A DNA stretch of 64,000 nt from Mobula hypostoma (Eukaryota), in assembly GCF_963921235.1 (NCBI RefSeq), contig NC_086097.1:31746001-31810000 (forward strand), in the 5' to 3' direction. This document shows positions 13,758 through 60,754 of this stretch, piece after piece. The notes under the pieces were generated by a model. That model saw nothing but the letters and a program-made list of their open reading frames with translations, made no database searches and had not been told where the DNA came from. Positions within the stretch are counted from its first letter, which is position 1. Each line of letters opens with the position of its first letter. The position numbers were made by a program, and so were the translations under genes.

Positions 13758-13760
13758 ATT

Positions 13761-30629: not shown

Positions 30630-31480
30630 TATAGGCTGGGATCTAATCCATCGGTTTGGAGGGGAGGTTTATATATAGAATAACAGATCCCCAGGAGTGG
30701 GTTACAGGCTGGAACCCAGTGCATGGTTTTAGAGATTTTATGTATAGAATAACAGTTCCCTGGTAACACACGTAAAATTTGCTGGTGAACGCAGCAGGCC
30801 AGGCAGCATCTATAGGATGAGGTACAGTTGACGTTTCAGGCCGAGACCCTTCGACAGTCCTGATGAAGGGTCTCGGCCTGAAACGTCCACTGTACCTCTT
30901 CTTATAGATGCTGCCTGGCCTGCTGCGTTCACCAGCAATTTTTATGTGTGTTGCTTGAAATTACAGCATCTGCAGATTTCCTCGTGTTTGCAGATCCCTG
31001 GTAGTGGGTTACAGGCTTGGGATTTAATCCAAGGATTTGAAGGGTTTATATATAGAACAACATATCCCTGGGAGTGGGTTACAGGCTGAGATCTAATTCG
31101 TGGGTTCGAGGATTTATATACAGAATAAAAGATCCTCTGGAGTGGGCTACAGGCTGCGATCCCCTCTGCCATCCAGTTTCTAGACAGACATTGAACTCAT
31201 GAACACTACCTCATTAATTTTTTATTTGTTTTTTTTGCACTACTTAACTATTTAATAGACATATATAGACTTAATATAACTCAGTTTTTTTGTTCTCTAT
31301 ATTTTTTGATCATGTATTTCATTGTACTGCTGCCGTAAAGTTAACAAATTTCACGAAATAAGCTGGTGATGTTAAACCTGATTCTGATCTGATGAAGTGT
31401 TTGGGGTTTTTTATATTGAGTAACAGATCCCCAGGAGTGGGTTACTGTCTGGGATCTGATCCCCGGCTCAGGTGTCGAGG
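30630..31480. repeat. Tandem repeat (~65-bp unit) interrupted by a PLE-derived palindrome and a LINE tail
   Basis: Repeated TATATAGAATAACAGATCCCCAGGAGTGGGTTACAGGCTGGGATCTAAT unit. Confidence 0.8.
30766..30990. mobile_element. Palindromic PLE-derived mini-element with hammerhead core
   Basis: ~90-bp inverted arms; TSD CAG(T/A)TCCCTGGTA at 30753-30765 and 30991-31003; CTGATGA...GAAACGTC at 30860-30887. Confidence 0.85.
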
Positions 31481-32815: not shown

Positions 32816-33564
32816 TGCAGCGCACACTTATCTCCACACAGGACTCGTCTCTGGATGTGACTCGAATTTGTGATCTTTTGATAACATTGACTCTGATTCA
32901 GGAAGCCAGCACAAACTGAAAGCCACCTTTCAAAATGAGTTCTGTGGAGCCCCTGGGGATCCCTTGGGAAGAGATCTTGCTGGTGTGTAGGGAACGGGTT
33001 TAGAGATCCCTCCTTGGTACGCATGGAAGTAGATCTCAGAGGGTAGAACTTCCTGCCTCGTTCTCTTTCTGATCCTGAGGAGCACTGAGAGTTGAGTGAT
33101 GAGGAGCTCTGTCAAAAGACCAGCACAAGCACAGTGGACTGAATGGCCTTGCCCTGAATCACTCTGGATGTACTTGCCATTCTGGAAGGCTGATTTTGCC
33201 GGCAGTGTTTTCAATACTTGTAGTGCACTCAGTGACTTTGACTAGAGCGTTGCCTCTCATCACCTCTGCCTTTTTGGTTGTTTATCTTTCCCTGAAATGA
33301 ATTCAAGGAATATCAATTTGAACTGCTGTTTTTTAAAAAAAATTAGCTCACCTACTTGCTCATTTGCCATTTAATTTACTTCAATGTAAACGTCAGAGAG
33401 GATGCTGTTATATAACACACTGCTTCACAAAATATCACTCAGCAGAAGAACATAAAAATTGGGAACATATTCTCACTCAAGCAATCATTTAAAGTTTTGA
33501 ATCATCTTCTACTTCAGTGGAATCTTCCAGCACCATCCAATTTTCCTCAACTCCTTATGATACG

Positions 33565-34600
33565 ACCATGAGACATAGGAGCAGAATTACACTGTTTGAC
33601 CCGTCTGGTTCTTTCTCCCACTTGATTGTGGCTGATTTGTTATCCCACTCAACCTCACTCTCCTGCCTTCTCCCTGTAACTTCTGATGCCCTTACTAATC
33701 TAGAATCTATCAACCCCTGCTTTAAATATCCCAGTGACATGGTCTCCACAGCCGTCTGCGGCAATGAATTCCACAGATTCACTACCCTCTGGCCGAAGAA
33801 ATTCCTCCTTATCTCTGACCTACAGGGATGTCCTTGTATTCTGAGGCATGGCCCTCTGGTTCTGGACTCCCCCGATACTGGAACCATCCTCTCCATGTCC
33901 ACACTACCTAGACCTTTCAACATTCAATAGGTTTCAATGAGAATCCCCCCTTCATTTTCCTAAACTCCAGTGAGTACGGGCCCAGAGCCATATGTTGAAA
34001 GATTGGAGCTACTGGGGTTGTATACACTGGAATTTAGAAGGATGAGAGGGAATCTGATTGAAATATATAAGATTATTAAGGGATTGGACACACTAGAGGC
34101 AGGAAACATGTTCCCGATGTTGGGGGAGTCCAGAACCGGAGGCCACAGTTTAAGAATAAGGGGTAGGCCATTTAGAACGGAGTTGAGGAAAAACTTCTTC
34201 ACACAGGGAGTTGTGGATCTGTGGAATGCTCTGCCTCAGAAGGCTGTGGAGGCCAATTCTCTGGATTCTTTCAAGAAAGAGTTAGATAGAGCTCTTAAAG
34301 ATAGCGGAGTGAAGGGATATGGGGTGAAGGCAGGAAAAGGGTACTGATTGTGGATAATCAGCCATGATCACAGTGAATGGTGGTGCTGGCTCGAAGGGCT
34401 GAATGGCCTACTCCTGCACCTATTGTCTATTGTCTATTGTCATTCAGCGGTCTGCATACATTAACCATTTCATTCCCGGGATCACTTTCATAAACTTCCT
34501 CTGGGTCCTCTCCAATGCCAGCTCATCCTTTCTTACATATGGGGCTCAAAGTGCTCACAAAACTCCAAATGTGGTCTGACCTCATCATTCTAGTCCTCTT
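33565..34600 (-). mobile_element. CR1 3' fragment with a nested + strand CR1 3' end (~33990-34440)
   Basis: ORFs 33555-33923 (-) and 33970-34347 (+); the latter closely resembles the 8860-10040 subfamily. Confidence 0.85.
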
Positions 34601-35741
34601 AAAATGAAAGCTCTGACGATCTATATCCCTCCATTTCCAGCACATTCATGTGCCTGTCTAACAGCCCTTAAATGCCTCTGCCACCACCCCCAGCAGCACA
34701 TTCCAAGCACCCACCAGTCTTTATGTAAAAAAACGGCCACACGCATCTCCTTTGAAATTTCCCCCTCTTAGCTTAAATGCGCGCCCTCTATTAGTCATTT
34801 CGACCCTGGGAAATAGGAACCAGCTGTCGATTCTATCTGAGCTTCTCATAGCCTTATACACCTCTATTAGGTCTCCCTTCAGTCTCTGCCTCTTCAGTGA
34901 AAGCAATCCAATTCTATCCAACCCCTCCTTATAGCTCATACCCTCTGATGCAGGCAGTGCCAGCTGTGCCTGCTTTTTGGTCAGCTACGTCGAACAGTCC
35001 ATGTTCACTGGAAACGTGTCCCCAGCTTTTTCTGTGCTCAGCATGGGTGATGCTTCCTGCAGTCTCCTGCTGGGCTCATCAATTTCATCAACTTTGCCTT
35101 CAACTTCCACCCTGCCCTTAAATTTATTTGGTCCACCTTGGACACCTCTTCTCTCTCTCTCTCTGGAGGCACATTCAATAGGTTTCAATGAGATTCCCCC
35201 CCCCCCCTCATCTCTCTCTCTCCCTCCCTCCATCTCTGTTATCTTTTACAAACCTACGGGCTCTCACAGCAACCTTGACTGTACCACTTCCCACCCAGCC
35301 ACTTGTGAAAACACTATTCCCTTTTCTCATTTCCTCCGTCTCCGCCGTATCTGTTCTCGGGATAGAGCTTCCCGTTCAAGAACAGCATTTTGTGTGTGGT
35401 GCTCTGGACTCCCAGCATCTGCTGAGTATCTTGTGTTTATCATCCTGGTGAACCTCTCCAAAGCCTCCACATCCTTCCTACGTGGCATCCTGCTTCCATG
35501 GCATGCATTCCAGGCACCCACCACTCTCACCTGACCCGCATATCTTTAAACTTTCCCTCCTCACCTTAAATCTATGTCCTCAAGTATTTCACATATCCAC
35601 CTGAGGAAAATGAGTCTGACTATCAACTCTATCTATGCCTCTAATCATCTTAGAACCAGGTCTCCCCTCACTCTCTGCCACTACAGTGAAAATAACCCAA
35701 GTTTGTCCAACCTCTTCCTTAAGCTAAAACTCTCTAATCCA

Positions 35742-35893
35742 CAAAATGCTGGAGGAACTCAGCAGGCCAGGGGCATCTATGAAAAAAAATACTCTACTTC
35801 TTCCCATAGATGCTTTCTGGCCTGCTGAGTTCCTCCAGTATTTTGTGTGTGTTGCTTGGATTTCCAGCATCTGCAGATTCTCTCTTGTTTGTG
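35742..35893. mobile_element. Palindromic PLE-derived mini-element (centre deleted)
   Basis: Inverted arms; exact 13-bp TSD ACTCTCTAATCCA at 35729-35741 and 35894-35906. Confidence 0.8.
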
Positions 35894-36222
35894 ACTCTCT
35901 AATCCAGGCAGCAACCCGGTGAACCTCTTCGACACTATCCCCAAAGCCTCCGTGTTCTTCCAGTAATTGGGCAGCCATACAGTGTTCCAAATGTGGTCTA
36001 ACCAAAGCTTTATACAGCTTCATATATGCTTAATGGTGCTACAGGGAGACTCCTGGGGTGAAGACTGAGTGATGGGAAGGAGGCTGGTGAAGTGCAGGAA
36101 CACTATACCATGATTTCAGCCAGTTGGCAAGCCCGAGTTTTGCCTCTCCCTGTTGACCCTGCACCTTATTTTTGTTCTCTGTTGCCCTTGAGAATCTCTC
36201 ATGTTATTTTGCTCTCTCTCAG

Positions 36223-36396
36223 CACACCAAATTCCTGCATGGGCTAGCCCAAGCGATGAACGTGGAGCGAGACGAGCAGATGGATGACCTGGAGGACCAG
36301 GCCGAGAAGCTGCTGGCCAGGGCTCGAGCGCTGGCAGAGATTGAGCGGGAGAGGACAGACGACAGCAACGCGTTCCTACAGAACCTGCAGCAAAAG
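36223..36396 (+). CDS. CCDC170: CCDC170-like coding exon B (174 nt)
   Basis: ctctctctcag|CAC ... AAG|gtcaca; HTKFLHGLAQAMNV...LLARARALAEIE...QNLQQK resembles YLKFLDQLSQKMKL...VLARTEQLVRLE...HNLQRK. Confidence 0.8.
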
Positions 36397-36689
36397 GTCA
36401 CAGTCCAACCTAGCAGCTGCCTGCTGTTTACTGTTGCTGTTGGTACAGAGAGAACGGCTTCACTATAATGATAACTCCCGAGAACCCGAGGTCACACAAC
36501 TGTGCACACCTTAACCCCTTAACCCCCTAGCCCTAGTCCAAAGTCAGCAAGTGAAGCCTATTCACAGTCTGTTTCTAGTGTGTTGTTAAATCGAACCAAT
36601 TTGGAATCATCTTTATCCAAGAATATGGCTTTATTTACAAAATGCTTCATCAAGTAACAATCTATTTCCATGTTTTTAGAAGGATAGTT

Positions 36690-37610
36690 TACAGGGAGCT
36701 TCACTGAGTGTCTGACCTCCCAGAATGGGATGGAATGGTGTAGAGGAAGCTGTGTCTCAACCCAGGAATATGGGACAGTGTAGAGGGATCTTCACTCTGT
36801 ATCTGATGCTGGGAGTATGTGTTGGGACAGTGTAGAGGAAGCTTCACTCTGTGTCTCAACCCAGGAATATGGGACAGTGTAGAGAGATCTTCACTCTGTA
36901 TCTGATGCTGGGAGTATGTGTTGGGACAGTGTGGATGGAGTTTCACTGAGTGTCTGACCCCAGGAATATATGATGGGGCACCGTGGAGGGATCTTCACTC
37001 TGTATCTGACCTTGGGAGTGTGTGCTGGGACAGTGTGGAGATGGCTTCACTCTGTGTCTGATCCCAGGAGTGTGTGATGGAACAATGTGGAGGGACCTTC
37101 ATTGTGTGTCTAACCCCAGGAGTGTGTGTCAGGATAGTGTGGAGGGAGCTTCAGTCTGTGTCTGACCCCAGGAATATGTGATGGGGCACTGCAGAGGGAT
37201 CTTCATTCTGTATCTGACCCTGGGAGTGTGTGTTTGGAGAATGTGGAGGGAGCTTCATTGTGTGTCTAACCCCAGGAGTGTGTGCCAGGATGGTGTAGAG
37301 GGAGCTTCATCTGTGTCTGACCCCGAGAATGTGTAATGGGGACAGTGAGACAGTGTGGAGGGAGCTTCATTGTGTGTCTAGCCCCAGAAGTGTGTGACAG
37401 GACAGTGTAGAGTGAGCTTCACTCTGTGTCTGATGCTGGGAGTGTGTGATGGGACAGGGCAGAAAGAGCTTCACTCTGTGTCTAAGCCAGGTCTTTCTCA
37501 TTTTCGGAGTGTCTGATAGGATAATGCAGAGTGGTTTCTAATCTGTGTGTTGCCCCTGCCCCAGGAGTGTGGAGGGGACGGTGTAGAGGGAGGCTTACTC
37601 TGCAACTGAA
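36690..37610. repeat. ~46-bp tandem satellite
   Basis: Unit approximately GGGAGCTTCACTCTGTGTCTGACCCCAGGAGTGTGTGATGGGACAGTGTAGA. Confidence 0.9.
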
Positions 37611-40600
37611 CTGGGCTGACCCTGCCGTGGGAGCAAGTGACAGGGGAGTTTAGATGGTGATTTGCTCTAAGTCAAAGCTGCACGGTTTGCTTGCTGGAAA
37701 CAGTTTGTAGCTGCCTATGTCCTGGTATCAGGCACACATCACGTTGTGTATCGATGTGCAGATTGTCATCTCCTTTTCATCCTCTTGTTGACCACAGCAT
37801 GAGGCAGTTTGCAGTGAAGGTGTTGTGAAAAAGCCACAATTAGGGAAAGCAGATAGACTAATCAAGCTAGGAGTTTTCTCTTTAAAACAAAGAAGGATGA
37901 AAGGTGACCTGATAGAGGTGTGCGTGATGATAAGAGGCGTTGATAGAGTGAATAGTCAGAGACCTTTTCCCAGGGTAGGAATACCTTCCGCGAGGGGGCA
38001 TAGTTTTAAGATAATTAGAGGAAGGTATAGGGTGGATAAACAGAGTGAGGAGAGTGTATGGAACACCCTGCTCAGGGTGGTGGTGGAGACGTTTAAAAGA
38101 CTCTCAGACAGGCACACAGATGATAGATAAGTGGAGGTCTATGTGGGAGGGAAGCGTTAGATTGATCTTAGAGTCAAAGGTTCGGCGCAACATCGTAGGC
38201 CAAAGGGCCTGTACTGTGCTGTACTGTTCTACTGTATTTTCAGAGAAAGATCCCAAACCATCAAACACCTGGGAGTCATTTAAAAGCCCGAAGTCAGGGG
38301 CACAATGTTCATGGAGGAACAAAGGCAGGGATGGCAAGGTTTGGTAATTGTTAATGATGAGCATTTTACAAATTTAGCCATGAAGAAAAAAAAGCGATAG
38401 GAAAGTTCCCTGAGTTATAGGGAAAAGTTGAATAGTTTAGGACTATATCTCCTGGAGTGTAGGAGATTGAGAGGAGATTTGATATACAAAGTTATGAGGG
38501 GTATGGATAGGGTAAGTGCAAGCAGGCTTTTTCCACTGAGGTTGGGTAAGACTAGAACCTGAGGTCATGGGTTAAGAGAGAAATGTGAAATATTTAAGAG
38601 GAACATGAGGGGACACTTAAGACCATAAGATACAGGAGCAGAATTAGGCCATTTGGCCCATCAAGTCTGCTCCACCATTTCATCATGGCTGATCCATTTT
38701 CCCTCTCATCTCCAATCTCCTATAAGACCATAAGAATCTCCTGTAAGACCATAACATCCTCACTCAGAAGGTGGTGCAGGTGTGGAACGAGCTGCCAGTG
38801 GAAGTAGTTGATGTGTGTTCAACTAGAACATTTAAGCAAGTTTGGATAAGCAGGTGAATGGGAGCGATATGAAGGGATGTGGTCCAGGTGTAGATGGATG
38901 AGACTGGGCACAGGCTGGATGGACTGAAGAGCCTGTTTCTGTCCTGTGGTGCTCTATGATTATGACTCTCATCAATTTTAGTAAATTAGTGTGCCTTTAG
39001 CAAATGCATTTAAGATGTGTTTAAGATCCAGGGAATTGAGGGATGTGGATCACATGCAGGCGGATGAAATTAGTTTAAGTTGTCTCCACAATCACGGGCT
39101 GAAGGGCCTGTATTCTATGTTCAATACATGGAACCAGGATCAGTCAGCTTCCCTCGAAGAACATTTAGGCTGAGCTGCTGGAGGTAATTAAACCCACTTT
39201 GTACAGCTTGCAGGCTTTGAACAGGTGATCTATTCACTTCGAGAGGCTGAAGCCTCTAATAAACTGTAATCTTCGCCTTTACAAGCACTTAGTTAGACTA
39301 GAACATGGAGTACTTTAAAAATAATTTTCCACGATTCTTCACTCCAATCCAAGCCTTCAAATTTGCTTCAACCTCCGTGGGGTCAGAGAGGAGTGCTGCT
39401 GACGTGAACCCATCCCCTCTCACCCACTTGCCTCGATGTTTACCAGAGAGAGGGAAAGGGCTCTGCTCTGTTAATCCATTCTCTGAGGGTTATAGCAGGT
39501 ACAACAGCTGCAGGTGTGACATTTAATATGCTGTATTGACCCCAGAAGAAAAATATCACTGCATTTTTGAGTAATTGATGGGCTGAGGAAGAGCAACACA
39601 GTAAAAGGTCCCCAGGTTTGGCTTTTTGCATCCGCTTTGGTTAGGTGTATTGTTACACAAGGCTCACTGATTAGGCTAAAGCCATCGGGTTGAGGTAAAT
39701 AATATGCATTAATGTTGTTATGGCTCAGATTTCACGTGCCCCCCTCCTTTGGAAAGGCGCCAAAGGTTTAAACTTGCAGAAAAACACATCAGATCGCTGC
39801 ATCTCCCAGCTTAAAGTTCAACCATTCATTTAAAAGACTCATTCACATCGCTCGAGAAATTTAGATCCAGCTATGAGTCACAGAAAAAGACACACAGAAA
39901 AAGACCCACACAGACCCTCCCCAGTCCTTATGGAGGGTCTCGGCCCAAAACTTCCCTCCATAGATGCTGCCTGACCTGTTGAGTTCCTCCAGCATTTTGG
40001 GTGCATTGCTATGGAAGCACATCTGTTGGCCCCATTCGCCCACGTCAAACTCACCCACCCAAGCTAGCCCCATTTGCCTGCATTTGATATCTTTCTAGTT
40101 TAACTTGCCTTCATGATCATGGGCCGAAGGTCCTACTCCATGTCCAATGTTCCTGTCCAAATGTCATAGAGTACTAGTCTTTTGAAACATGAAGATACCT
40201 ATCTCTACCTCTTTCTCCTGCAGCTTGTTCCCTGTACCTACCACCTTCTATCTGCCCTTCATGTCCCTTTTAAATCTTTCCCCTCTCTGGAACATCGAAC
40301 AGCACAGTACAGGCCCCTTGACCCACTATGTGGTTGTGTAGACCTTTTAGCCTGCTTCAAGATCACTCTAATACTTCCCTTAGCTTTTGAGGGCGGATCT
40401 ATTCAAAACATTGCACTGGGGGTGGGTGCTCCTACGTAGCCCTCCATTTTTTTCCCATCTAGGTACCTAGTAGTGTGAATCCTGAGGCACCTGTACCTTC
40501 TACCCGATGGCAGCAGCGAGAAAAGATCATGGCCTGGGTGGTGAGGATCTTTGATGGTGGATGCTGCTTCTCTACGGCGATGTTTCATGTAGATGTGCTC

Positions 40601-41388
40601 AGTGGTTGGGACGGGTTTACTCGTAATGTACTTGGCTGAGTCCACTACTGTTTGTAGGGTTTTCTGTTCAAAGGCAGTACGGGTGAGAGGGAGAGAGAGA
40701 CGTCGAGAATGATAGAAAAGATAACAATTCACTTTATTTGTCACACATACATTGAAACATACAGCAAAATGTGTTGTTTGCGTCAACAGTGTGAGGATGT
40801 GCTGGGGGCAGCCCACAAGTGTTACCATGCTTCAGGTGCTGAAACAGCATGCCCGCAACTTACTAATCCAAGCCTGTATGGCTTTGGAAACTGGAGCACC
40901 CAGAGGAAACCCACGTGTCCATGGGGAGAGGTACAAACTACTTATAGACAGTGATGGGAATTGAACCCCAGATGCTGATGCTGTTAAGTGTAACAGCGAG
41001 TGCTATGCTACCAAACCCCCACCCCTGGTGTAAAGTATGGAATAGATTTGCTCTGACAAACTAATCGGGGACTGTTTGTGGGGTAACGGACGTAATTCGT
41101 GCAGTGATTTCCCTGTAGACATTAAAGGCTGTAGATACTAGAGTCTGGAGCAACACACAAAGACACTGGAGGAACTCAGCAGGTCAGGCAGCATCTGTGG
41201 ACGGGAATGGACAGTCGGTGTTTCTGGCCGAGATCCTTCTGGTGTACTCAGCCCAGAAGAAGGATCTGGACCCAAAATGTAGACTGTACATTTCCCACCA
41301 CAGATGCTGCTTGACCCTGAGTTCCTCCAGCACCCTTTGTGTGTCACTGCAGTGGTCCCCCTGGCTCACTCCCACCTCTCACTGACAG

Positions 41389-41613
41389 GTGACATCTCAG
41401 AGGGAGAGGCTGGCCAGCAGTAAGCGGCACGTCCAGCTCCTGACCGACAGACTCAGCCAGCTGGAGGGGAGGGAGCCGCCGGGCCGGGATGGGCAGGGTG
41501 GTGGGCTGGCCGAGCTGCGGAAGGACGTGGAAAGGCTGCAAGGACAGCTGGATGTGGCGAAGAGGAAGAACCGCAGCCTGAGAGAGAAGAACGAGGAAAT
41601 CACAGCTCTGAAG
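41389..41613 (+). CDS. CCDC170: CCDC170-like coding exon C (225 nt)
   Basis: gacag|GTG ... AAG|gtaagg; VTSQRERLASSKRHVQLL...LRKDVERLQGQL...ITALK resembles LKTQKERLESKELHMSLL...LQKKVERLQKEL...TNELK. Confidence 0.85.
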
Positions 41614-42256
41614 GTAAGGGGGCAGGGGTTCCGGTGTGGAAGGGGCCTTGTGTGGGGGCATCTGGTGTGTGGAGGGGATACAGTGTGGGAGATCTTTCGT
41701 CGGAGGGATCTGGTATGGGTGCGATCTTGTGTGGGGAGATCGTGGGGTGGGGGGTCTAGTACAGGAGGGATCTGATGTGGGGGTTGGTGTTGGAGATCTG
41801 ATGTGGGAATCCAGCATTGAGGGATCCAGTGTAGATTCAATAAGTGTGAGGGGATCCTGTTTAAGGAGTTGCAGAAGGGATCTACAGATCCATTTGGGAG
41901 ATGGAAAACACAGATACCCATGGATACACACGTTTACACACACAGATATATGTGTACCCTCAGTTACACACATTTTCATAGATACACATTGATACATGGG
42001 CTCATCGATACACTGAGGAACACCATGCTTTCTCACATCCTGCATATTAAGATATAGATATATACATGCCACACAATGTAGCTCAGTGTGCATACATTCA
42101 CATCCACGTACACGCGTGTGTAGGGGCACCTGGTGTTGGCAGTTCTCTTCAGCCGCCTTGCCCTCTCCACAACCCAATGCCTCATGGGGCAGAGGTTGTG
42201 ATGGGGATGGGCATTAACTCCAGGGACTAGATTTCCAATGGTGATTCTCTCCCCAG

Positions 42257-42493
42257 GCAAAGAACAGGGAGCAGGACCGGACCATCCAGAGGCTTAGGGA
42301 ATCGCTGGAGAAACTGGAGTCGATCAAGGATAAAGCGGCCCGCAAGGTGGTGATGCTGACTTCCGAGCTGGACCAGGCAGAGCAGGGAGCCTTGGAGAGG
42401 AGCAGCCAGGCCCAGAGCTTGAACCAGGCCCTCAGCAATGAGCTCCACTCTGCCAGGAAAGCCCTGGAGGTGGTGGCACGTAGGGAGAGGCAG
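42257..42493 (+). CDS. CCDC170: CCDC170-like coding exon D (237 nt; missed by the ORF track)
   Basis: tctctccccag|GCA ... CAG|gtggga; AKNREQDRTIQRL...LESIKDKAARKVVMLTSELD...ARKALEVVARRERQ resembles IKTLEQTKAIEDL...LEKMKEKAEKKLMSVKSELD...KKSLEEAEKREKQ. Confidence 0.85.
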
Positions 42494-43257
42494 GTGGGAG
42501 TTGCTACTAAACCTTAAGATAATGTTTCTGAGGCATAAGGATCCCCCATTCGTCTAACCTCCAGCGAGTACAGGCCCAGAGCCATCAACACTCCTCACAC
42601 ATTAACCCTTTCATTCCCAGGATCTCATAAACCTCTTCTGGTTCCTCTCCAATGCCAGCACATCCTTTTTTAGATAAAGGGGCCAAAACCGCTTACAATA
42701 TTCCATGTGCAGTCTGACCGATGCTTTATAAGGGCCTCGGTGGTGGAGCTGGTGGAAGGTGATGACACATCATAATGGTAGAGTGAAGGTGCAGGAAATC
42801 TGCTGCTGAGGAGGGTCCCCGGTCATTCTGCATTCCATGCCACTGTGCCCTGACACCATTCCGTCAAGCACCGCATGCCTATGTAACCTCAGACTCCCCG
42901 CGTTAAACAGCGACACGCATAGGTATTCTCCATTAAGGGCGTCCACCTTAACATCCTGGATGTGAATCCCGAATCAGCCTCTTCACCCACTAATCGACAA
43001 CCCCTTCGCTTAGGAGGGCATCATACCCAATCCAAGTGATTGCTCTCCTACTACTAAAGACTCAGCTTTACATCCTTGCTTTTATATTCTAGTCCTCTTG
43101 AAATGAATGCTAACATTGTATTTGTTTTACTCAACCTGCAGCTAACCTTTAGGGAATCTTACATGAGGATGCCCAAGTCCCTTTGCACTTCCAATTTCTG
43201 AATTTACACTCCATTTATAAAATAGTCTATGCCTTTATTCCATCTACCAAAGTTCAT

Positions 43258-45447
43258 GACATAGAACATAGAACATAGAATGGTACAGCACAGTACAGGC
43301 CCTTCGGCCCACAATGTTGTGCCGACCCTCAAACCCTGCCTCCCATATAAGCCCCCACCTTAAATTCCTCCATATACCTGTATAATAGTCTCTTAAACTT
43401 CACTAGTGTATCTGCCTCTACCACTGACTCAGGCAGTGCATTCCACGCACCAACCACTCTCTGAGTAAAAAACCTTCCTCTAATATCCCCCTTGAACTTC
43501 CCACCCCTTACCTTAAAGCCATGTCCTCTTGTATTGAGCAGTGGTGCCCTGGAGAAGAGGCGCTGGCTATCCGCTCTATCTATTCCTCTTATTATCTTGT
43601 ACACCTCTATAATGTCTCCTCTCATCCTCCTTCTCTCCAAAGAGTACAGCCCTAGCTCCCTTAATCTCTGATCATAATGCATACTCTCTAAACCAGGCAG
43701 CATCCTGGTAAATCTCCTCTGTACCCTTTCCAATGCTTCCACATCCTTCCTATAGTGAGGCAACCAGAACTGGACACAGTACTCCAAGTGTGGCCTAACC
43801 AGAGTTTTATAGAGCTGCATCATTACATCGCGACTCTTAAACTCTATCCCTCGACTTATGAAAGCTAACACCCCATAAGCTTTCTTAATTACCCTATCCA
43901 CCTGTGAGGCAACTTTCAGGGATCTGTGGACATGTACCCTGAGATCCCTCTGCTCCTCCACACTACCAAGTATCTGGCCATTTACTTTGTACTCTGCCTT
44001 GGAGTTTGTCCTTCCAAGGTGTACCACCTCACACTTTTCCAGGTTGAACTCCATCTACCACTTCTCAGCCCACTCCTGCACCCTATCAATGTCTCTCTGC
44101 AATCTTTGACAATCCTCTACACTATCTACAACACCACCAACCTTTGTGTCATCTGCAAACTTGCCAACCCACCCTTCTACCCCGACATCCAGGTCGTTAA
44201 TAAAAATAACGAGAAGTAGAGGTCCCAGAACAGATCCTTGTGGGACACCACTAGTCACAATCCTCCAATCCGAATGTACTCCCTTCACCACCACCCTCTG
44301 CCTTCTGCAGGCAAGCCAATTCTGAATCCACCTGGCCAAACTTCCCTGGATCCCATGCCTTCTAACTTTTTGAATAAGCCTACCGTGTGGAACCTTGTCA
44401 AATGCCTTACTAAAATCCATATAGATCACATCCACTGCACTACCCTCATCTATATGCCTGGTCACCTCCTCAAAGAACTCTATCAGGCTTGTTAGACATG
44501 ATCTGCCCTTCACAAAGCCATGCTGACTGTCCCTGATCAGACCATGATTCTCTAAATGCCTATAGACCCTATCTCTAAGAATCCTTTCTAACAGCCTTCC
44601 CACCACAGATGTAAGGCTCACTGATCTATAATTACCCGGACTATCCCTACTACCTTTTTTGAATAAGGGGACAACATTCGCCTCCCTCCAATCCTCCGGT
44701 ACCATTCCCGTGGACAACGAGGACATAAAGATCCTAGCCAGAGGCTCAGCAATCTCTTCTCTTGCCTCGTGGAGCAGCCTGGGGAATATTCCGTCAGGCC
44801 CCGGGGACTTATCTGTCCTAATGTATTTTAACAACTCCAACACCTCCTCTCCCTTAATATCAACATGCTCCAGAACATCAACCTCACTCATATTGTCCTC
44901 ACCATCATCAAGTTCCCTCTCATTGGTGAATACCGAAGAGAAGTATTCATTGAGGACCTCGCTCACTTCCACAGCCTCCAGGCACATCTTCCCACCTTTA
45001 TCTCTAATTGGTCCTACCTTCACTCCTGTCATCCTTTTTTTCTTCACATAATTGAAGAATGCCTTGGGGTTTTCCTTCACCCTACTCGCCAAGGCCGTCT
45101 CATGCCCCCTTCTTGCTCTTCTCAGCCCTTTCTTAAGCTCCTTTCTTGCTTCCCTAAATTCCTCAATAGACCCATCTGATCCTTGCTTCCTAAACCTCAT
45201 GTATGCTGCCTTCTTCCACCTGACTAGATTTTCCACCTCATTTGTCACCCATGGTTCCTTCACCCTACCATTCTTTATCTTCCTCACTGGGACAAATTTA
45301 TCCCTAACATCCCGCAAGAGATCTCTTAACATCGACCACATGTCCATAGTACATTTTCCTGCAAAAACATCATCCCAATTCACACCCGCAAGTTCTAGCC
45401 TTACAGCCTCATAATTTGCCTTTCCCCAATTAAAAATTTTCCTATCC
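43258..45447 (-). mobile_element. Young CR1 LINE, 5'-truncated, single nonsense codon in RT
   Basis: ORFs 44055-45383 and 43329-44054 are in one frame separated by one TAG (W*MEF); (CTATGTT)n tail. Confidence 0.95.
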
Positions 45448-45516
45448 CAAATGTATGACTATACACTTTGCGACACTATCCCATATTCCAATCCTTTGCC
45501 CATGAGACATTGGAGC

Positions 45517-45741
45517 AACACACACAAAATAATGGAGGAACTCAGCAGGCCAGGGAGTTTCTATGGAAAAGAGTAAACAGTTGATGTTTCAGGCCGAGAC
45601 CCTTCATCAGGACCAGATGAAGGGTTTCAGCCCCGAACTTCGACTGTACTCTTTTCCATAGATGCTGCCTGGCTGCTGTTCCTGCGGCATTTTGTGTGTG
45701 TTGCTTTGGATTTCCAGCATCTGCAGATTTTCTCCTCTTTG
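45517..45741. mobile_element. Palindromic PLE-derived mini-element, degenerate
   Basis: Inverted arms around CCTTCATCAGG...ATGAAGGG; imperfect flanking repeat TGAGACATTGGAGC / TGAGATGTAGGAGC. Confidence 0.7.
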
Positions 45742-47108
45742 TGAGATGTAGGAGCCGAGTTAGGCCACTTGGCCTTCGAGTCTGCTCCACCATTTCCAGT
45801 GTGGCTGATTTATTTTCCCTCTCAACCCCATTCTCTTGCCTTATCCCTGTAACTCATGACACCCTGACTAATCAGTAACCGATCAGTCCTTTTAAATGTA
45901 CTAAATGACTTGATCTCCACAGCTGTCTGTGACAATGATTCATCACCCTCTGGCTAAAGAAATTCCTCCTCATCTCTGTTCTAAAGGGGCATCTTTCTAT
46001 TCTGAGGTTGCGTCCTCTTTCGATATTCGGTAGGATTCAATGAAAATCCCCCCCTTATTCTTCTCAACTCCAGTGAGTACAGGCCCAGAGAAATTAAATG
46101 CTCCTCAGACACTATGTTACCCTTTCATTCCCACGGTCATTTCTGTGACCCTCTCCAGTGCCAGCACACCCTTTCTTAGATAGGTGGGCCAAAACTGCTC
46201 ATGATACTGACCAATGCTCAGACAGCAGGGGAACAAGCCCTGCGGTCCAGCCAGCCTGTGCTGACCGTGAGGTCCATCAAAGGTTTACCAGGATGCTGCC
46301 AAGACTAGAGGCTATGAGCTATGAGCAGAGGCCGGACAAACTTTCTCTGCAACGGTGGAGGCTGAGGGGAGCTCTGAAAGGGGTATGCAAAATCATGAGG
46401 GGTATAGACAGGGTAAATGCAAGCAGGCTTTTTCCACTGAGGTTGGGTGAGACTGGAACTAGGGGTCACGGGTTAAGGGTATCAGGGGAAATGTTTAAGG
46501 GGGAACTGGGGCGGGGGGAGTTTCTTCTTTTAGAGCGTGTTGCGAGTGGAACAAGCTGCTGGCGGAAGTGGTGGTTGCAGGTTCAGTTGCAACATTGAAG
46601 AGAAGTTTGGATAAGTACATGGATGGGAGGGGTGTGGAGGGCTGTGGTCCGGGTCTGGGCCGATGGGGCAAGGCAGAATAACAGTTCTAGATGGGCTGAA
46701 GGGCCTGTTTCTGTGCTGTAGTGCTCTCTGATTCTATGATCTATGAGAAGCGTAGATAGGGGTAAGCAGCTGGTATGGCAATGTCTCATTCCAGTGGGCA
46801 TGCATTTAAAGTGAAAGAGAATAAGTTCAAAGGAGAAGTGCAGGCAATTTGTTTACACAGAGATTGGGGGTGCCTGGAGCGCGCTGCAGGGATGGTTGTG
46901 GAGGCTGAGATGATAGAGGCACTTAGGCGCATGGATGTACAGGAAGTGGAGGGATATGGACACTGTGTAGGCAGATGCATTAGTTCAGTCAGACATTTAT
47001 TTACCGACGCAAACAACAGGAATTCTGCAGATGCGGGAAATTCAAGCAACACACATCAAAGTTGCTGGTGAACGCAGCAGGCCAGGCAGCATCTCTAGGA
47101 AGAGGTAC

Positions 47109-47144
47109 AGTCGACGTTTCAGGCCGAGACCCTTCGTCAGGACT
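47109..47144 (-). ncRNA. Minimal type I hammerhead ribozyme motif (inverted arm)
   Basis: Minus strand AGTC-CTGACGA-AGG(GTCTCGG)CCT-GAAA-CGTC-GACT. Confidence 0.8.
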
Positions 47145-47758
47145 AACTGAAGGAAGAGTTAGTAAGAGATTTGAAAGTGGGAGGGGGAGGGGGAGATCCA
47201 AAATGGTAGGAGAAGACAGGAGGGGGAGGGATGGAGCCAAGAGCTGGACAGGTGATTGGCAAAGGGGATATGAGAGGATCATGGGACAGGAGGTCCAGGG
47301 AGAAAGACAAGTTGGGGGAGGAAACCCAGAGGATGGGCAAGGGGTATAGTCAGAGGGACAGAGGGAGAAAAAGGAGAGTGAGAGAAAGAATGTGTGTATA
47401 AAAATAAATAATGGATGGGGTACGAGGGGGAGGTGGGGCATTAGCGGAAGTTAGAGAAGTCGATGTTCATGCCATCAGGTTGGAGGCTACCCAGACGGAA
47501 TATAAGGTGTTGTTCCTCCAACCTGAGTGTGGCTTCATCTTTACAATAGAGGAGGCCGTGGATAGACATGTCAGAATGGGAATGGGATGTGGAATTAAAA
47601 TGTGTGGCCACTGGGAGATCCTGCTTTCTCTGGCGGACAGAGCATAGGTGTTCAGCAAAGCGGTCTCCCGGTCTGCGTCGGGTCTCGCCAATATATAGAA
47701 GGCCACATCGGGAGCACTGCACGCAGTATATCACCCCAGACGACTCACAGGTGAAATG

Positions 47759-49956
47759 ATGGTCTTTACCATCCCCTCCGACCTTCAACTGTCGGAGGCA
47801 GAACGCTCTGTCCTCAGTAAGGGCCTCACCTTTGTCCCCCTTCGCCCACAGTTCAGCGAGTTCCGTGTTCGCCACGATGCGGAACTCTTCTTCCGCCGTC
47901 TCCGTCTCCGAGCCTACTTCTTCGGCAAGGATTCTTCCAACCCCACCGATGACCCCTTCTCCCGTCTTCAACCCTCCTCTTCTTCATGGACACCCCGCTC
48001 TGGTCTTCTGCCTGCTCTGGATCTCTTTATTGCTAACTGCCGATGGGACATCAACCGTCTCGACTTCACCGCATCTTGTTCCCATTCCAACCTTACTCCT
48101 TCCGAATGCTCTGCTCTCCACTCCCTCCGCACTAATCCTAACCTTATTATTAAACCCGCCGATAAGCGGGGGGGGGGTGCTGTTGTAGTCTGGCGCACTG
48201 ACCTCTACCTCGCCGAGGCACAGCGACAACTCGCGGATACCTCCTCTTATTTACCCCTCGATCGTGACCCCACTAAGGAGCACCAGGCCATTGTCTCCCA
48301 CACCATCACCGACTTTATCCGCTCAGGGGATCTCCCATCCACTGCTACCAACCTTCTAGTTCCCACACCCCGCACTTCCCGTTTCTACCTCCTACCCAAG
48401 ATCCAAAAACCTGCCTGTCCTGGCCGACCTATTGTCTCAGCTTGCTCCTGCCCCACCGAACTCGTTTCTGCATACCTCAACACTGTTTTATCACCCCTTG
48501 TTCAATCCCTTCCGACCTATGTTCCTGACACTTCTCACGCTCTTAAACTTTTCGATGATTTTAGGTTCCCTGGCCCCCACCGCTTTATTTTCACCATGGA
48601 TGTCCAGTCCCTATATACTTCCATCCCCCATCAGGAAGGTCTCAAAGCTCTCCGCTTCTTTTTGGATTCCAGACCTAATCAGTTCTCCTCTACCACCACT
48701 CTGCTCCGTCTAGCAGAATTAGTCCTTACTCTTAATAATTTCTCCTTTGGCTCTTCCCACTTCCTCCAAACTAAAGGTGTAGCTATGGGCGCCCGTATGG
48801 GTCCTAGCTATGCCTGCCTTTTTGTTGGCTTTGTGGAACAATCCATGTTCCAAGCCTATACTGGTATCTGTCCCCCACTTTTCCTTCGCTACATCGACGA
48901 CTGCATTGGCGCTGCTTCCTGCACACATGTTGAGCTCGTTGACTTTATTAACTTCGCCTCCAACTTTCACCCTGCCCTCAAGTTTACCTGGTCCATTTCC
49001 GACACCTCCTCCCCTTTATAGATCTTTCTGTCTCTGTCTCTGGAGACAGCTTATCCACTGATGTCTACGATAAGCCTACTGACTCTCACAGCTGTCTGGA
49101 CTATTCCTCTTCTCACCCTGTCACTTGGAAAAATGCCGTCCCCTTCTCGCAATTCCTCCGTCTCCGCCGCATCTGCTCTCAGGATGAGTCTTTTCATTCC
49201 AGGACGAGGGAGATGTCCTCCTTTTTTAAAGAAAGGAGCTTCCCTTCCTCCACTATCAACTCTGCTCTCAAACGCATCTCCCCCATTTCACGTACATCTG
49301 CTCTCACTCCATCCTCCCGCCACCCCACTAGGAATAGGGTTCCCCTGGTCCTCACCTACCACCCCACCAGCCTCCGGGTCCACATATTATTCTCCGTAAC
49401 TTCCGCCACCTCCAACGGGATCCCACCACTAAGCACATCTTTCCCTCCCCCCGCCCCGCTTCCCGCAGGGATCGCTCCCTACGCGACTCTCTTGTCCATT
49501 CGTCCCCCCCCCACATCCCTCCCCACTGATCTCCCTCCTGGCACTTACCCTTGTAAGCGGAACAAGTGCTACACATGCCCTTACACTTCCTCCCTTATCA
49601 CCATTCAGGGCCCCAGACAGTCCTTCCAGGTGAGGCGACACTTCACCTGTGAGTCGGCTGGGGTGATATACTGTGTCCGGTGCTCCTAATGTGGCCTTCT
49701 ATATATTGGCGAGACCCGACGCAGACTGGGAGACCGCTTTGCTGAACACCTACGCTCTGTCCGCCAGAGAAAGCAGGATCTCCCGGTGGCCACACATTTT
49801 AATTCCACATCCCATTCCCATTCTGACATGTCTATCCACGGCCTCCTCTACTGTAAAGATGAAGCCACACTCAGGTTGGAGGAACAACACCTTATATTCC
49901 GTCTGGGTAGCCTCCAACCTGATGGCATGAACATCAACTTCTCTAACTTCCGCTAA
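47759..49956 (+). pseudogene. PLE RT/GIY-YIG ORF, 5'-truncated with frameshifts and a stop
   Basis: ORFs 47756-49021 and 49213-49689, with continuation to ...NFSNFR* at 49954-49956. Confidence 0.9.
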
Positions 49957-50262
49957 TGCCCCACCTCCCCCTCGTACCCCATCCATTATTTATTTTTACA
50001 CACACATTCTTTCTCTCTCTCTCTCTCTCTCCTTTTTCTCCCTCTGTTCCTCTCACTACTTGCCCATCCACTGGGCTTCACCCCTCCCCCTTTCTTTCTC
50101 CCTGGGCCTCCTGTCCCATGATCCTCTCGTATCCCCTTTTGCCTATCACCTGTCCAGCTCTTGGCTCTATCCCTCCCCCTCCTGTCTTCTCCTATCATTT
50201 CGGATCTCCCCCTCCCCCTCCCCCTCCCCCTTTCAAATCCCTTACTCACTCTTCCTTCAGTT

Positions 50263-50298
50263 AGTCCTGACGAAGGGTCTCGGCCTGAAACGTCGACT
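50263..50298 (+). ncRNA. Minimal type I hammerhead ribozyme motif
   Basis: AGTC/GACT stem I, CUGACGA core, AGG/CCU stem II, GAAA, palindromic ACGU in place of stem III; predicted cleavage after GUC at 50294. Confidence 0.8.
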
Positions 50299-50459
50299 GT
50301 ACCTCTTCCTAGAGATGCTGCCTGGCCTGCTGCATTCACCAGCAACTTTGATGTGTGTTGCATTTATTTACTGGTTTGATTAGTCTGGCACCACATGATG
50401 AGCCGAAGGGCCTGCTGCTGTTCTGTACAGTTCCATGGAAATCGAGATGAAGGTGGTGG

Positions 50460-50668
50460 GTAAACGCCCACTGGGAAAACATCTAGTGGGCAAACATTCA
50501 GTGTGTCAGTGTCCACTGGGCAAATGTTCAGAGAGCAAACATCCAGTGGGAAAATGTCCAGTGACCAAACATACAGTAGGCCAATGTCCAGTGGACAAAA
50601 ATCCAATGGGAAAATATCCAGTGGGGAAATGTCTGGTAAGAACACATCTAGTGGGCAAATGTCCGGTG
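50460..50668. repeat. 20-bp tandem repeat (~10 copies) just upstream of the last exon
   Basis: Unit approximately TCCAGTGGGCAAA(C/T)(A/G) variants at 20-nt spacing. Confidence 0.75.
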
Positions 50669-50691
50669 AGTGACTGTCTGTTCTTCTGCAG

Positions 50692-50976
50692 CTGGTGGAT
50701 TTCCGGGAGTCTGTGGTGAGAGCGCTGGGATTCGACACCAACACCATGGCCATCCCTGACGACAAGATCTATCTCCAGCTGAAGAGCCTCACCCAGCCAC
50801 ACAGCAGGGAGCTGCAGGTGGTCTCCCACCACCGTGGGCCCACCAGGGGACACCTGGGACCGTGGCCCCCACACAGCCCCCCTCCCAGCTGGGGCCAAAA
50901 CACTGCCCCATCCGGCTCTCCGCACCGGGGCCATGGCTGGGGCAGCCTGGCACTACCCCTTCACCAGGCCTCCTGA
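50692..50976 (+). CDS. CCDC170: CCDC170-like last coding exon E
   Basis: ttcttctgcag|CTG; LVDFRESVVRALGFDTNTMAIPDDKIYLQLKSL resembles LADFREVVSQMLGLNVTSLALPDYEIIKCLERL; TGA at 50974-50976. Confidence 0.85.
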   Translation: MVDFRESVVRALGFDTNTMAIPDDKIYLQLKSLTQPHSRELQVVSHHRGPTRGHLGPWPPHSPPPSWGQNTAPSGSPHRGHGWGSLALPLHQAS

Positions 50977-51595
50977 ACGAGAGCACAGTGTGGACCACAG
51001 TCATGGCCACTGCGCAGAAGCTTGCCACTTGGCCCTTCTGCTCAGTGCTCGCTCTCTCCAAGAGCACCGTGGCCTGACCAATACAGAGCACTACAGCACA
51101 GTATAGGCCCTCTGGCTTGCTATATTGTGCTGACCTTTTAACCTACTCAGAGATCAATCTAATCTTTCCCTCCCGCAGAGCCCTCTATTTTCCTATTACC
51201 TATGTGCATATCTGAGAGTTTCTTGAATGCCCCGAATGTATCTGCATCTGCCACCATCACTGGCTGGGCGGTCCACATAGCCACCACTCTCTGTGTAAAA
51301 CAAACTACCTCTGACCTATACATTTCTAAAATCACCTTTAAGTTATCTCCTCTGCTATTAGCAACTTTCACCCTGGGGGTAAGTCTCTGGCTGTGCCTCT
51401 TATCACCTTGCACATCTCTATCAAGTAACCCCTCATCATTCACTCCAAAGAGAAAAGCCCAGCTCACTCAACCTTTCCTTATCAGGCATGCTCTATGATC
51501 TATCAACATCTTGGTAAATCTCCTCTGAACCCCCTCGAAAGCTTTCACATCCTTCCCATAATGAGGACACCAGAAGTGAACACAATGCTCCAAGC

Positions 51596-51757
51596 ACAAG
51601 GAAATCTGCCGATGCTGGAATTTCAAGCAACACACACAAAAATTGCTGGTGAACGCAGCAGGCCAGGCAGCATCTATAGGAAGAGGTACAGTCGACGTTT
51701 CGGGCCGAGACCCTTCACCAGGACCCTCCTGATGAAGGGTCTTGGCCGAAAACATCA
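51596..51757. mobile_element. PLE-derived mini-element with partial palindrome and degenerate hammerhead cores
   Basis: Exact 14-bp TSD ACAATGCTCCAAGC at 51582-51595 and 51758-51771, within a CR1 fragment. Confidence 0.85.
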
Positions 51758-58400: not shown

Positions 58401-60754
58401 AATGGGAGGTGACAATGTGTCCAAGGAGACCCATTATTATTTGGCTAGTCTGTCATCCAAAAATAAATTTAATTTGCAGTTTTTTTCTGTAATGGCAGCA
58501 GCCGGTGTGTGCTGGTTGTTGAGAGCCATTGGATTTTTTTGATTGAAGCAATTTCACCAGCCGCCTTTCAGATGAGGCTGCTTGATGTTATTGACCCCCA
58601 TCTGCACCGGAGTCTCACAAAATCCCGTCACCCTCCGCACCCCTTACAACCACTTTGCTGCGGTGCACAGGAAAACAGGGTGGATGAGCAGAGCAGGGCA
58701 AGCCCCCCCTCCAACAGTTGGGTAGACATCTGCTCCTCCACACCGGCAGGATTTAATCCCCCCTCCTTGGACAGTTCCCAACACTACAGACCCCCCCTCC
58801 CTACTGCAGGACTGTAGGTTGGGAGGGGGGAAAGGACGGGGAACTGAACAAACCTGCTGTTAACCATGGGTGATATTGGAGTTTTCATAAAATACAGGGA
58901 GGTGTCTCCTACAGCATTTTAGAGCACTACAGCACAGAAACAGGCCCTTTGGTTCATCGGCACACAAGAGGTACTGCAGATGCTGGAAATCGAGAGCGAC
59001 GCACACAATGTGCCAGAAGAGCTCAGCAGGTCAGGCAGCATCTGTGGATGGGAATAAGCAGTCAACGTTCGGGCCAAGACCCTTTATCAGTGATGCCTTT
59101 CCCTTCCAGAAGAGGGGTCTTGGACCAAAACATTGACTGTTTTTCCCATTCATAGATGCTGCCTGATCCGCTGAGCTCCTATAGCACTTTGTGTGATTTG
59201 CTTTGGTCCGTCTAGTCCGTGCAGAACTATTATTTTGCCTTGTTGCATTGACCCCCACCTGAACCATAGCCTTCATACTCCTCCCATGATGTACCAATCC
59301 AAATTTCTCTTAAATGTTGCAGTCAAAGCCACATCCACCACTTCTGCTGGCAGCTTGTTCCACACTCTCACCATCCTCTGAGTGAAGCAGTTCCCCGTCA
59401 GGTTCCCCTTAAATATTTCACTTTTCACCCTTAACCCATGACCTCTAGTTCCTGTCTCACCCAACATCAGTGGAAAAAGCCTACTTGCATTTACCCTACC
59501 TATATCTCTCATAGTTTTGCGTACCTCTATCAAATCTCCCCTCATTCTCCCATACTCCAGGGAATAACCTATTCCCTACAACTCAGTGGGACACTCCCTC
59601 ACTACCTCCCCTCCCACAGTGTGACCTTCCCTCAATGCCTCCTTCCCCTTCAGTTTTTTTCCATCCTCTAGTGAGGCCGAATTTCCCGAACCTTCCTCCC
59701 CATCAGGAACGTAGCCATCCTCGCTGGCAAGCAGAGCGCCTCCCCCATTAATCCGCTGTGCTGAGGCGCTCTGTGTCTCAGCTCAAGTCTGCCTTTGACC
59801 GAGAGGCCCCCACGGGGTTGGAAGATGCTGCGCCAACCAGCAGATTGCTGAGTTTGGGTCCAAGTTCGACGACAGATTTGTGGCAACCTCGCGATTCCGC
59901 TTCCAAATTAATAGTGCATCAGTCCACATTCCCCTGATTTAATCTCTATCCCCAAATTAGGTTGGAGTCTAAAATTCACTTCAAAGTCTCACACTAATCT
60001 GCCTTTAATTATAAAGATGAATTTTGTCTCTTGCCCGATGCTTATCTGCCTGGGCTGTCATTAAGTTGAGTGGACATCGAGATGATATACTTTGTTTTGT
60101 ATCTGGATAATTCAAAGGTTTATAGAAAAGTAGATGCGCTGTTCATTAAAAATGATGCGAGGGGGTGGAAGGGGGGTGCTGAGGTTTCAGCAGAGGGTCT
60201 CAATATTGTTGTTGGCCCTTTGAAACTTCTCTTCCATCCTTGGCAAAGTGAGCTGACATAACTTCCACTGGATATAGCTCATCAAGTGAAGGCAGTGGGG
60301 GAGGGCGTTCTTATCTTTAAGACCAAATCTCTCTTTCAAACTTTGATGGGAAGTGGGGTGGGAGTTGAGGACAGGGGGACCTTAAAATGACAGCCAAGAA
60401 GTCAGGAGCAAAGTTACCAAAACCATTGTCAGAGTACGGAGAAAGTTGAGGGTCACTGATTGAGTTGATCAAAGTCAAAGTTAAAGCAAATTTATTATGG
60501 AAGTACTCTTAAGTCATGATATACTACCTGGAGCTACATTTTCTTGCAGACATTTAAAGAAAAATGAAGAAATACAATAGAATTTATGAAAGATTATAAG
60601 TACATAAATAAAGACTGACAAACAAATACTGACAACATGTGTTGTAGAGTCCTTGAAACTGAGTTTGTACGTTGTGGAATCAGTTCAGATTTGAAGTGAG
60701 TGAGGCTATCCTCACTGGTTCAGAAGCCTGATAGTTGAAGAGTAATAACTGTTC

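What the first reader, a model, noticed from the sequence alone, without database searches (positions are those of the whole stretch)
50263..50298. Intact minimal hammerhead ribozyme motifs on both strands in the PLE termini, inside a host intron
Seen: AGTC-CUGACGA-AGG(GUCUCGG)CCU-GAAA-CGUC^GACU at 50263-50298 (+), with an identical copy at 47109-47144 (-). All core nucleotides are present, and stem III is reduced to the palindrome ACGU. Known: PLEs carry minimal type I hammerheads with palindromic stem III that are thought to cleave as dimers. Inference: the + copy lies in the sense pre-mRNA of the CCDC170-like last intron, about 400 nt before the acceptor. It could cleave if paired with a second copy, such as the one at 30856-30891 if that lies in the same transcript.
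Basis: partly seen in the sequence, partly recalled or inferred. Interest (0 to 1): 0.7.

Follow-up and report, generated by a model that had tools for sequence, protein, structure and literature searches.

The report
Retrotransposon hammerhead locked by antisense twin
A minimal self-cleaving RNA motif of a known type sits at both ends of a broken Penelope-like jumping gene in an intron of a ray gene; because the two ends face each other, the motif is predicted to pair with its own mirror copy and likely never cuts the host RNA, so it is an ordinary transposon relic.

Summary
The motif is real: identical 36-mers at 50263-50298 (+) and 47109-47144 (-), the only two passes of a hammerhead descriptor in the window. 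They are minimal type I hammerheads in the termini of one broken, 5'-truncated Neptune-type Penelope-like element (47005-50360; inverted arm with tail; 11-bp target-site duplication) in the last intron of a ray CCDC170-like gene. This is a published feature of such elements. In host pre-mRNA the + copy is predicted to pair 36/36 with its own upstream antisense arm (-80 kcal/mol against -11.5 for the active dimer). The proposed partner at 30856 sits in its own ~100-bp hairpin and has a stem I mismatch. Across family copies, core CpGs are changed about as often as non-core ones, and the junction is shared with a second species. RNA ends could not be tested (contigs only). Side lead: 12 of 15 short copies in the window begin at the ribozyme's 5' edge, just after a branch-point/pyrimidine/AG signal, not at the cut site, which suggests uncut templates.

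The parts
50262..50299 (+). Minimal type I hammerhead motif, sense to the host gene; predicted cut between 50294 (C17) and 50295
47108..47145 (-). Identical hammerhead motif in the inverted arm; read on + it is the exact antisense of the 50262-50299 copy
47005..50360 (.). Whole Penelope-like insertion (inverted arm plus 5'-truncated body)
46994..47004 (+). Left 11-bp AT-rich target-site duplication
   Evidence: only shared word of 7 nt or more between the two end regions
50361..50371 (+). Right 11-bp target-site duplication
47005..47758 (-). Inverted 5'-truncated arm (end of the endonuclease, 3' UTR, hammerhead, and a ~41-nt tail at 47005-47045 absent from the right end)
   Evidence: 29 substitutions in 703 aligned columns against 49639-50360
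47759..49956 (+). Broken RT to GIY-YIG ORF: lacks about 173 N-terminal aa of the closest relative, is frameshifted, and has a premature stop at 49687-49689; CX4CxxC linker at 49552-49578
50243..50264 (+). Branch-point-like heptamer, pyrimidine tract and AG dinucleotides (50259-60, 50263-64) directly before stem I: likely 3' splice site of the element's own intron (untested)
   Evidence: perfect TACTAAC in the inverted arm
30765..30991 (.). Short fold-back copy of the same terminus, about 11-13 bp TSD with one mismatch; holds the 30856-30891 (+) motif, core intact but C at 1.1, buried in a ~100-bp hairpin
42257..42493 (+). Penultimate coding exon of the CCDC170-like host gene
50692..50976 (+). 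Last coding exon of the CCDC170-like host gene
   Evidence: RNA-guess contig X9 record 31

Best explanation
The motif is a minimal type I hammerhead carried in both termini of a broken Penelope-like retrotransposon that inserted as a head-to-head unit into the last intron of a ray CCDC170-like gene, and in host pre-mRNA it is predicted to be locked in a long duplex with its own antisense arm, so it is likely an inert passenger. Shown: motif, two arms, tail, 11-bp TSD, broken RT-endonuclease frame, host exons. Inferred: any role of the ribozyme belongs to the life cycle of active master elements (dimer- or protein-assisted processing of tandem PLE RNA). Here polymerase makes the antisense arm first, the ~700-bp duplex would zip up to the hammerhead before it is transcribed, and the intron is spliced out normally.
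For: Anatomy matches published PLE insertions (inverted truncated arm, one-sided tail, TSD: PMC8557442 and PMC3846280 passages; PMC4209133 Fig. S4A legend). RVT_1 and GIY-YIG hits. Folding: all 38 nt of 50262-50299 and 681 of 722 nt of the right arm pair with the left arm; duplex -80.2 against -11.5 kcal/mol for the active dimer, -30.3 for the best dimer and -11.0 for a misfolded monomer. With RNA made only up to 50262, 53 of the last 63 nt are already paired to the antisense arm. Of 7 sense-strand arms upstream of the host stop codon, 2 have an intact core and the second is in its own hairpin. In DNA contigs of two organisms, CpG-type changes hit G8 (6.0, 7.3%), C17 (6.9, 8.6%), 1.1 (8.7, 10.6%) and stem III (8.7-11.9%) at rates near loop II (7.9-12.6%). 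Identity of the two 36-mers is expected by chance at 4% arm divergence (P 0.22). A contig of RNA-guess run X9 joins the stretch at 50688 after 235 off-stretch letters, as splicing from the 237-nt upstream exon would give (letters not shown).
Against: Nearest-neighbour energies ignore hammerhead tertiary contacts, proteins and folding kinetics. Core positions are changed slightly less often than loop II (G8 6-7% and C17 7-9% against 8-13%), and the figures are depth-weighted over contigs filtered at 85% identity. Related subfamilies diverge right at both edges of the hammerhead (loose ends before 50263 and behind 50298-50300), so the motif is conserved among master elements and is probably functional for them. 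A heterodimer using the 30856 core could in principle form a perfect 5-bp stem I on the 50294 site. The junction is also present in a second organism (X7 record 24, only 20 letters on the element side, below the tool's 31-letter bridging rule), so the copy has persisted.
Confidence: 0.85

Rival explanations
1. One reading: the sense copy cuts the host pre-mRNA in its last intron by forming a double hammerhead with the 30856 copy or with another PLE-bearing RNA in trans, which lowers or tunes CCDC170-like mRNA.
For: All core nucleotides are present. The family is very abundant, so trans partners exist (45,299 and 50,110 contigs laid in two DNA runs; 4,188 and 3,591 in two RNA-guess runs). Intronic ribozymes can affect mRNA maturation (CPEB3, PMC10274809 passages).
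Against: Both partners are predicted to be sequestered. Dimers of PLE minimal hammerheads cleave weakly (PMC4209133); 8 of 9 Xenopus retrozyme dimers did not cleave (bioRxiv 2026.07.22.740005); the anole PLE hammerhead needed its protein, and no RNA-seq ends were found at its cut site (PMC11167929). Introns cut by a hammerhead were still spliced (as cited in PMC2995048). The ratio of RNA-guess to DNA depth is flat across the cut (0.058 to 0.059 and 0.045 to 0.049 from 50294 to 50301), and dead-core variants are rarer, not commoner, in the RNA-guess runs (G8A 1.2-1.4% against 6.0%); both are weak, contig-based signs.
Confidence: 0.06
2. The insertion matters to the host by another route: a ~700-bp double-stranded RNA 330 nt before the last acceptor (editing substrate, shortened effective intron) or a cryptic 3' splice site at 50259-50264.
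For: Arms 96% identical in aligned columns; branch-point-like heptamer, 82% pyrimidine tract against 64% at the true acceptor, and only 3 AGs in 49958-50270.
Against: The same duplex would bury the cryptic site. The one informative RNA-guess contig uses the normal acceptor. No locus-specific editing or splice data.
Confidence: 0.07
3. The motif is a chance or degenerate look-alike with no catalytic ability in any context.
For: No Rfam hammerhead hit; the monomer folds no better than shuffles (z -1.24); closing pair is G.U.
Against: 0 strict hits in 100 simulated windows; matches the published PLE consensus position by position, several published members also close helix II with G.U; lies in the expected place in the pLTR.
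Confidence: 0.05

Closest known systems
Minimal type I hammerheads (min-HHR) of metazoan Penelope-like elements (Cervera and De la Pena 2014, PMC4209133)
   Same: Core, extra nucleotide after A9, palindromic ACGU in place of helix III, short helix I, position in the pLTR, copies on opposite strands at the ends of a 5'-truncated element (their Fig. S4A). The Acropora Neptune and Ixodes entries have the same core and palindrome.
   Different: G.U instead of the consensus G-C at 10.1-11.1 (C in 36-37% of family depth in DNA); short 4-bp helix II. No cartilaginous fish is in the text of their 56-motif alignment or Table S1.
Neptune-type EN+ Penelope-like elements (Craig et al. 2021, PMC8557442)
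   Same: RT followed by C-terminal GIY-YIG, CX2-5CxxC linker, inverted truncated arm, one-sided tail.
   Different: This copy is truncated and broken; clade not tested by a tree.
Anole Poseidon PAc hammerhead (Frangieh et al. 2024, PMC11167929)
   Same: Hammerhead upstream of two element ends (tail and no tail), AT-rich target.
   Different: PAc is an intact element whose ribozyme was shown to be protein-assisted; nothing was assayed here.
Non-LTR retrozymes (bioRxiv 10.64898/2026.07.22.740005)
   Same: Type I hammerheads related to PLE termini; also reported in one chondrichthyan genome and often in introns.
   Different: Retrozymes are head-to-tail tandem units that allow dimers; here copies are head-to-head and antisense to each other.
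Domesticated intronic hammerheads of amniotes (RECK, CTCL; review PMC6155905)
   Same: Type I hammerhead on the sense strand of an intron.
   Different: Those are canonical, stand-alone and conserved across classes; this one is minimal, inside a recent high-copy transposon and next to its antisense copy.

Membership tests
PLE minimal type I hammerhead | Core CUGANGA ... GAAA ... NUH | tested here: met
PLE minimal type I hammerhead | Unpaired nucleotide between 9 and 10.1; helix II closed by G10.1 (C11.1 in the consensus, U in several published members) | tested here: met
   G.U here
PLE minimal type I hammerhead | Helix III reduced to a palindrome; short helix I | tested here: met
   4-nt palindrome, 5-bp stem I
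PLE minimal type I hammerhead | Located in the pLTR of a PLE | tested here: met
PLE minimal type I hammerhead | Self-cleavage as a dimer or with protein help | not testable with these tools
   only contigs were available
Neptune-type EN+ PLE | RT with C-terminal GIY-YIG endonuclease | tested here: met
   RVT_1 E 5.7e-7; GIY-YIG E 1.4e-4 (22.5 bits, cut-off 22.6) on the inverted arm
Neptune-type EN+ PLE | CX2-5CxxC zinc-finger linker before the endonuclease | tested here: met
   read from the translation; definition from PMC8557442; Nematis not formally excluded
Neptune-type EN+ PLE | Inverted pLTR arm, one-sided tail, TSD | tested here: met
Neptune-type EN+ PLE | RT groups with named Neptune elements in a tree | not tested
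   the 120 listed relatives carry no clade names
Non-LTR retrozyme | Two or more head-to-tail units each with a hammerhead | tested here: not met
   copies are single or head-to-head; rare tandem joints exist elsewhere in the genomes (table 5)
Domesticated intronic hammerhead (RECK type) | Canonical helices with loop contacts, able to fold as a monomer | tested here: not met
   no helix III, monomer misfolds
Domesticated intronic hammerhead (RECK type) | Conservation of the core above flanks at the orthologous site across distant species | tested here: inconclusive
   only the 3' junction could be assigned to the orthologous site in one close relative
Rfam hammerhead models | Covariance-model hit | tested here: not met
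   none among 16 matches up to E 5

The most novel reading that the evidence does not exclude
Ray genomes hold tens of thousands of ~100-140 bp fold-back copies of this terminus whose 5' ends sit at the hammerhead's 5' edge, right after a conserved branch point, pyrimidine tract and AG. They would be run-off cDNAs from the 5' end of the spliced, uncut PLE mRNA, primed at the two internal RT start sites. That would be a genome-wide in vivo record that PLEs transpose from uncleaved RNA, and head-to-head insertion would automatically silence every ribozyme and splice acceptor dropped into a host intron.
Probability: 0.3. Interest if true: 0.5.

Novelty: new member of a known kind. Interest (0 to 1): 0.22.

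Why it matters
As given, it adds a cartilaginous-fish example to a known class (PLE minimal hammerheads) and shows why such intronic copies need not harm the host: head-to-head insertion supplies a built-in antisense lock. Whether PLE hammerheads cut in vivo is still open in the papers read; the very high copy number in rays makes the 5'-end distribution of copies a cheap genome-wide test of that question.

Tried and rejected
No whole genome is held for this window, so no genome-wide count, orientation-bias test or end map was possible. Sequencing-run search: no RNA holder listed; all 23 rows were contigs, so RNA ends, strand and level cannot be read; 4 of the 23 were laid, one of them a possible source of the window. 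Summed depth on the terminus is about 10^6 times the unique flank, but the tool states this is no copy number. RNA-to-DNA depth rises about twofold only beyond 50311, where subfamilies with other linkers rejoin, so I did not read it as a cleavage step. Rfam: no hammerhead; the mir-789 and similar hits are the fold-back hairpins, below gathering scores. Metagenome pattern scan: 0 matches. Related metagenome loci were distant (mostly 25-32% identity); 1 descriptor hit in 24 loci, uninformative. Lunse et al. (dimer cleavage) is not held; I saw only its title and a review's summary. Searches for a chondrichthyan PLE-hammerhead paper listed none devoted to it; one search showed 20 of 3,014 papers, and bioRxiv supplements and one file of PMC4209133's supplement were not visible, so absence from print is not shown. 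Earlier scan findings: none by sequence or words. Rejected: special conservation of the two 36-mers (P 0.22; longest identical run P 0.52).

Full report
OBSERVATION. The 36-mer is at 50263-50298 (+) and is identical to 47109-47144 read on the - strand. A type I hammerhead descriptor passes only these two sites in the 64 kb; 100 simulated windows gave 0.09 loose and 0 strict hits per window. Stem I is 5 bp. The third copy at 30856-30891 differs at N7 and has C at 1.1. Rfam has no model that hits.

ANATOMY. Both motifs belong to one insertion, 47005-50360, flanked by an 11-bp AT-rich duplication (46994-47004 and 50361-50371). The left arm (47005-47758, -) is an inverted copy of 49639-50360 with 29 substitutions in 703 aligned columns and carries a ~41-nt tail that the right end lacks. 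The body encodes RT and GIY-YIG, starts at residue 174 of its closest relative, is frameshifted and has a stop inside the endonuclease; a CX4CxxC linker points to the Neptune type (definition in passages of PMC8557442). Inverted truncated arms, one-sided tails and TSDs are the typical PLE layout (passages of PMC8557442 and PMC3846280). The host exon at 42257-42493 is 97% identical to a Mobula birostris CCDC170-like protein, and five exons map from 31585 to 50970 at 91-99%. The window is thus from a close ray relative. The last intron is 42494-50691. Residues 1-394 of that protein do not map in the window, so the 30856 copy probably lies in a long upstream intron of the same gene (inferred).

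DOES IT CUT THE HOST RNA? Probably not. In the sense transcript the inverted arm is the antisense of the right arm and is made first. Folding 46990-50700 pairs all of 50255-50333 and 681 of 722 right-arm bases with the left arm; with RNA ending at 50262, 53 of the last 63 nt are already paired. The sense-antisense duplex of the motif is -80.2 kcal/mol; the active double hammerhead is -11.5, the best dimer -30.3, the monomer misfold -11.0. These energies omit tertiary contacts and proteins. On the opposite strand the 47109-47144 copy is locked likewise (36 of 36). The 30856 copy is paired at p about 1 from 30865 to 30887 in its own hairpin; out of that hairpin it could supply a perfect stem I for the 50294 site, so the barrier is sequestration rather than its mismatch. 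Of 19 terminus arms in the window 4 have an intact core, and 2 of the 7 sense arms upstream of the host stop codon. Literature points the same way: weak cleavage of dimers (PMC4209133, main text parts 1-2 of 4); protein-assisted cleavage, no need for cleavage in insertion and no RNA-seq ends at the cut (PMC11167929, parts 1-2 of 4 and passages); 1 of 9 retrozyme dimers active (bioRxiv 2026.07.22.740005, parts 1 and 3 and passages); hammerhead-cut introns still spliced (passages of PMC2995048). Against: an intronic ribozyme can affect mRNA maturation (passages of PMC10274809).

SEQUENCING RUNS. Only contigs were offered; I laid 4 of 23 runs on 50230-51120 at 85% likeness. The terminus is extremely repetitive (45,299 and 50,110 contigs laid in two DNA runs of two organisms; X1 may be the window's source). 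Among family copies CpG-type changes are G8 6.0/7.3%, C17 6.9/8.6%, 1.1 8.7/10.6%, stem III 8.7-11.9%, loop II 7.9-12.6%; G12 is 5.2/5.9% although only about a third of the depth has a CpG there. Core positions are at the low end but of the same order, which fits mostly neutral decay after insertion. Subfamilies, however, diverge exactly at the motif's edges (loose ends before 50263 and behind 50298-50300 with recognisable other-subfamily consensus), which fits selection on master elements. Organism B has a contig from 50341 to 51120 with 19 differences, starting inside the element's end, so the insertion likely predates that split (20 letters on the element side, under the tool's 31-letter rule). 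One contig of RNA-guess run X9 enters at 50688 after 235 off-stretch letters, as expected for splicing from the 237-nt upstream exon with 4 shared letters; the letters were not shown. No step in relative depth is seen across 50294/50295. RNA ends could not be tested.

SIDE LEAD. Short copies are mostly fold-backs, three with 11-14 bp TSDs. 12 of 15 short arms start within 9 nt of 50263, one at the cut site; older subfamilies unlike my two references could blur this for solo copies, though not for fold-backs, where the other arm follows. Loose ends with mixed flanks also pile before 50264-50265 in both DNA runs. Just upstream lie a branch-point-like heptamer, a pyrimidine tract and AG, as for the intron that ends at helix I in Drosophila virilis Penelope. 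My inference: these are run-off cDNAs from the 5' end of spliced, uncut PLE RNA, in line with internal RT initiation downstream of the hammerhead. Rivals are self-priming at palindromic junctions (proposed in PMC3846280), RT stalling at the structure, or amplification of a few short non-autonomous founders. One arm (51727-51757) ends near the cut site and one begins there, so some cleavage is not excluded.

VERDICT. A real minimal hammerhead, member of the published PLE class by every sequence feature tested; activity untested. New at most as a cartilaginous-fish example (searches listed no paper devoted to it; one preprint reports retrozymes in one chondrichthyan; unseen supplements may list it). 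Cleavage of the host pre-mRNA is unlikely (about 6%). Interest 0.22.

Noticed in passing
window: 19 terminus arms, e.g. 14423, 30765-30991, 35746-35893, 39923, 41149-41344, 45506-45741, 51591-51757, 58960-59205: Short copies of the PLE terminus, mostly head-to-head fold-backs, three with 11-14 bp TSDs. 12 of 15 short arms start within 9 nt of the hammerhead's 5' edge, 1 at the cut site, 2 elsewhere downstream; 4 longer arms keep the upstream tract. In DNA contigs the largest loose-end piles are before 50263-50265 (578, 223, 216 in X1), and 50295 is not among the six listed per run (676 rows not shown).
   Followed up: partly
window 50243-50264 (+), 47143-47164 (-), 26007-26040 (-): Branch-point-like heptamer, pyrimidine tract and AG directly before stem I in the main element; a second subfamily has a different tract but also AG at the same place. 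Drosophila virilis Penelope has an intron ending at the 5' end of helix I (PMC4209133).
   Followed up: partly
window 51727-51757 (+): This fold-back arm ends within about 3 nt of the hammerhead cut site, directly before its TSD; a single case that could reflect a cleaved template.
   Followed up: no
table 5 (joints 50297-50301 back to 50263-50267): A few DNA contigs in both organisms show head-to-tail repeats of the ~35-nt hammerhead unit: rare natural dimers elsewhere in the genomes.
   Followed up: no
window 50286: The U11.1 variant holds about 64% of family depth, far above CpG decay at other sites, so a successful subfamily carried G.U or A-U at the base of helix II.
   Followed up: partly
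window 11581-14029 (-): Decayed gag-protease-like frames of an LTR retrotransposon type next to a piece resembling a host SDS3/BRMS1-like coding sequence (labels recalled, not tested; frames).
   Followed up: no
window 31800-32860 and 36775-37490: Tandem arrays of 33-nt and 52-nt units in introns of the host gene.
   Followed up: no
window 3359-6037 (-): An 892-aa open endonuclease-RT frame of a CR1/L2-like LINE (label recalled), one of many LINE pieces; the PLE itself sits inside such a LINE 3' end.
   Followed up: no
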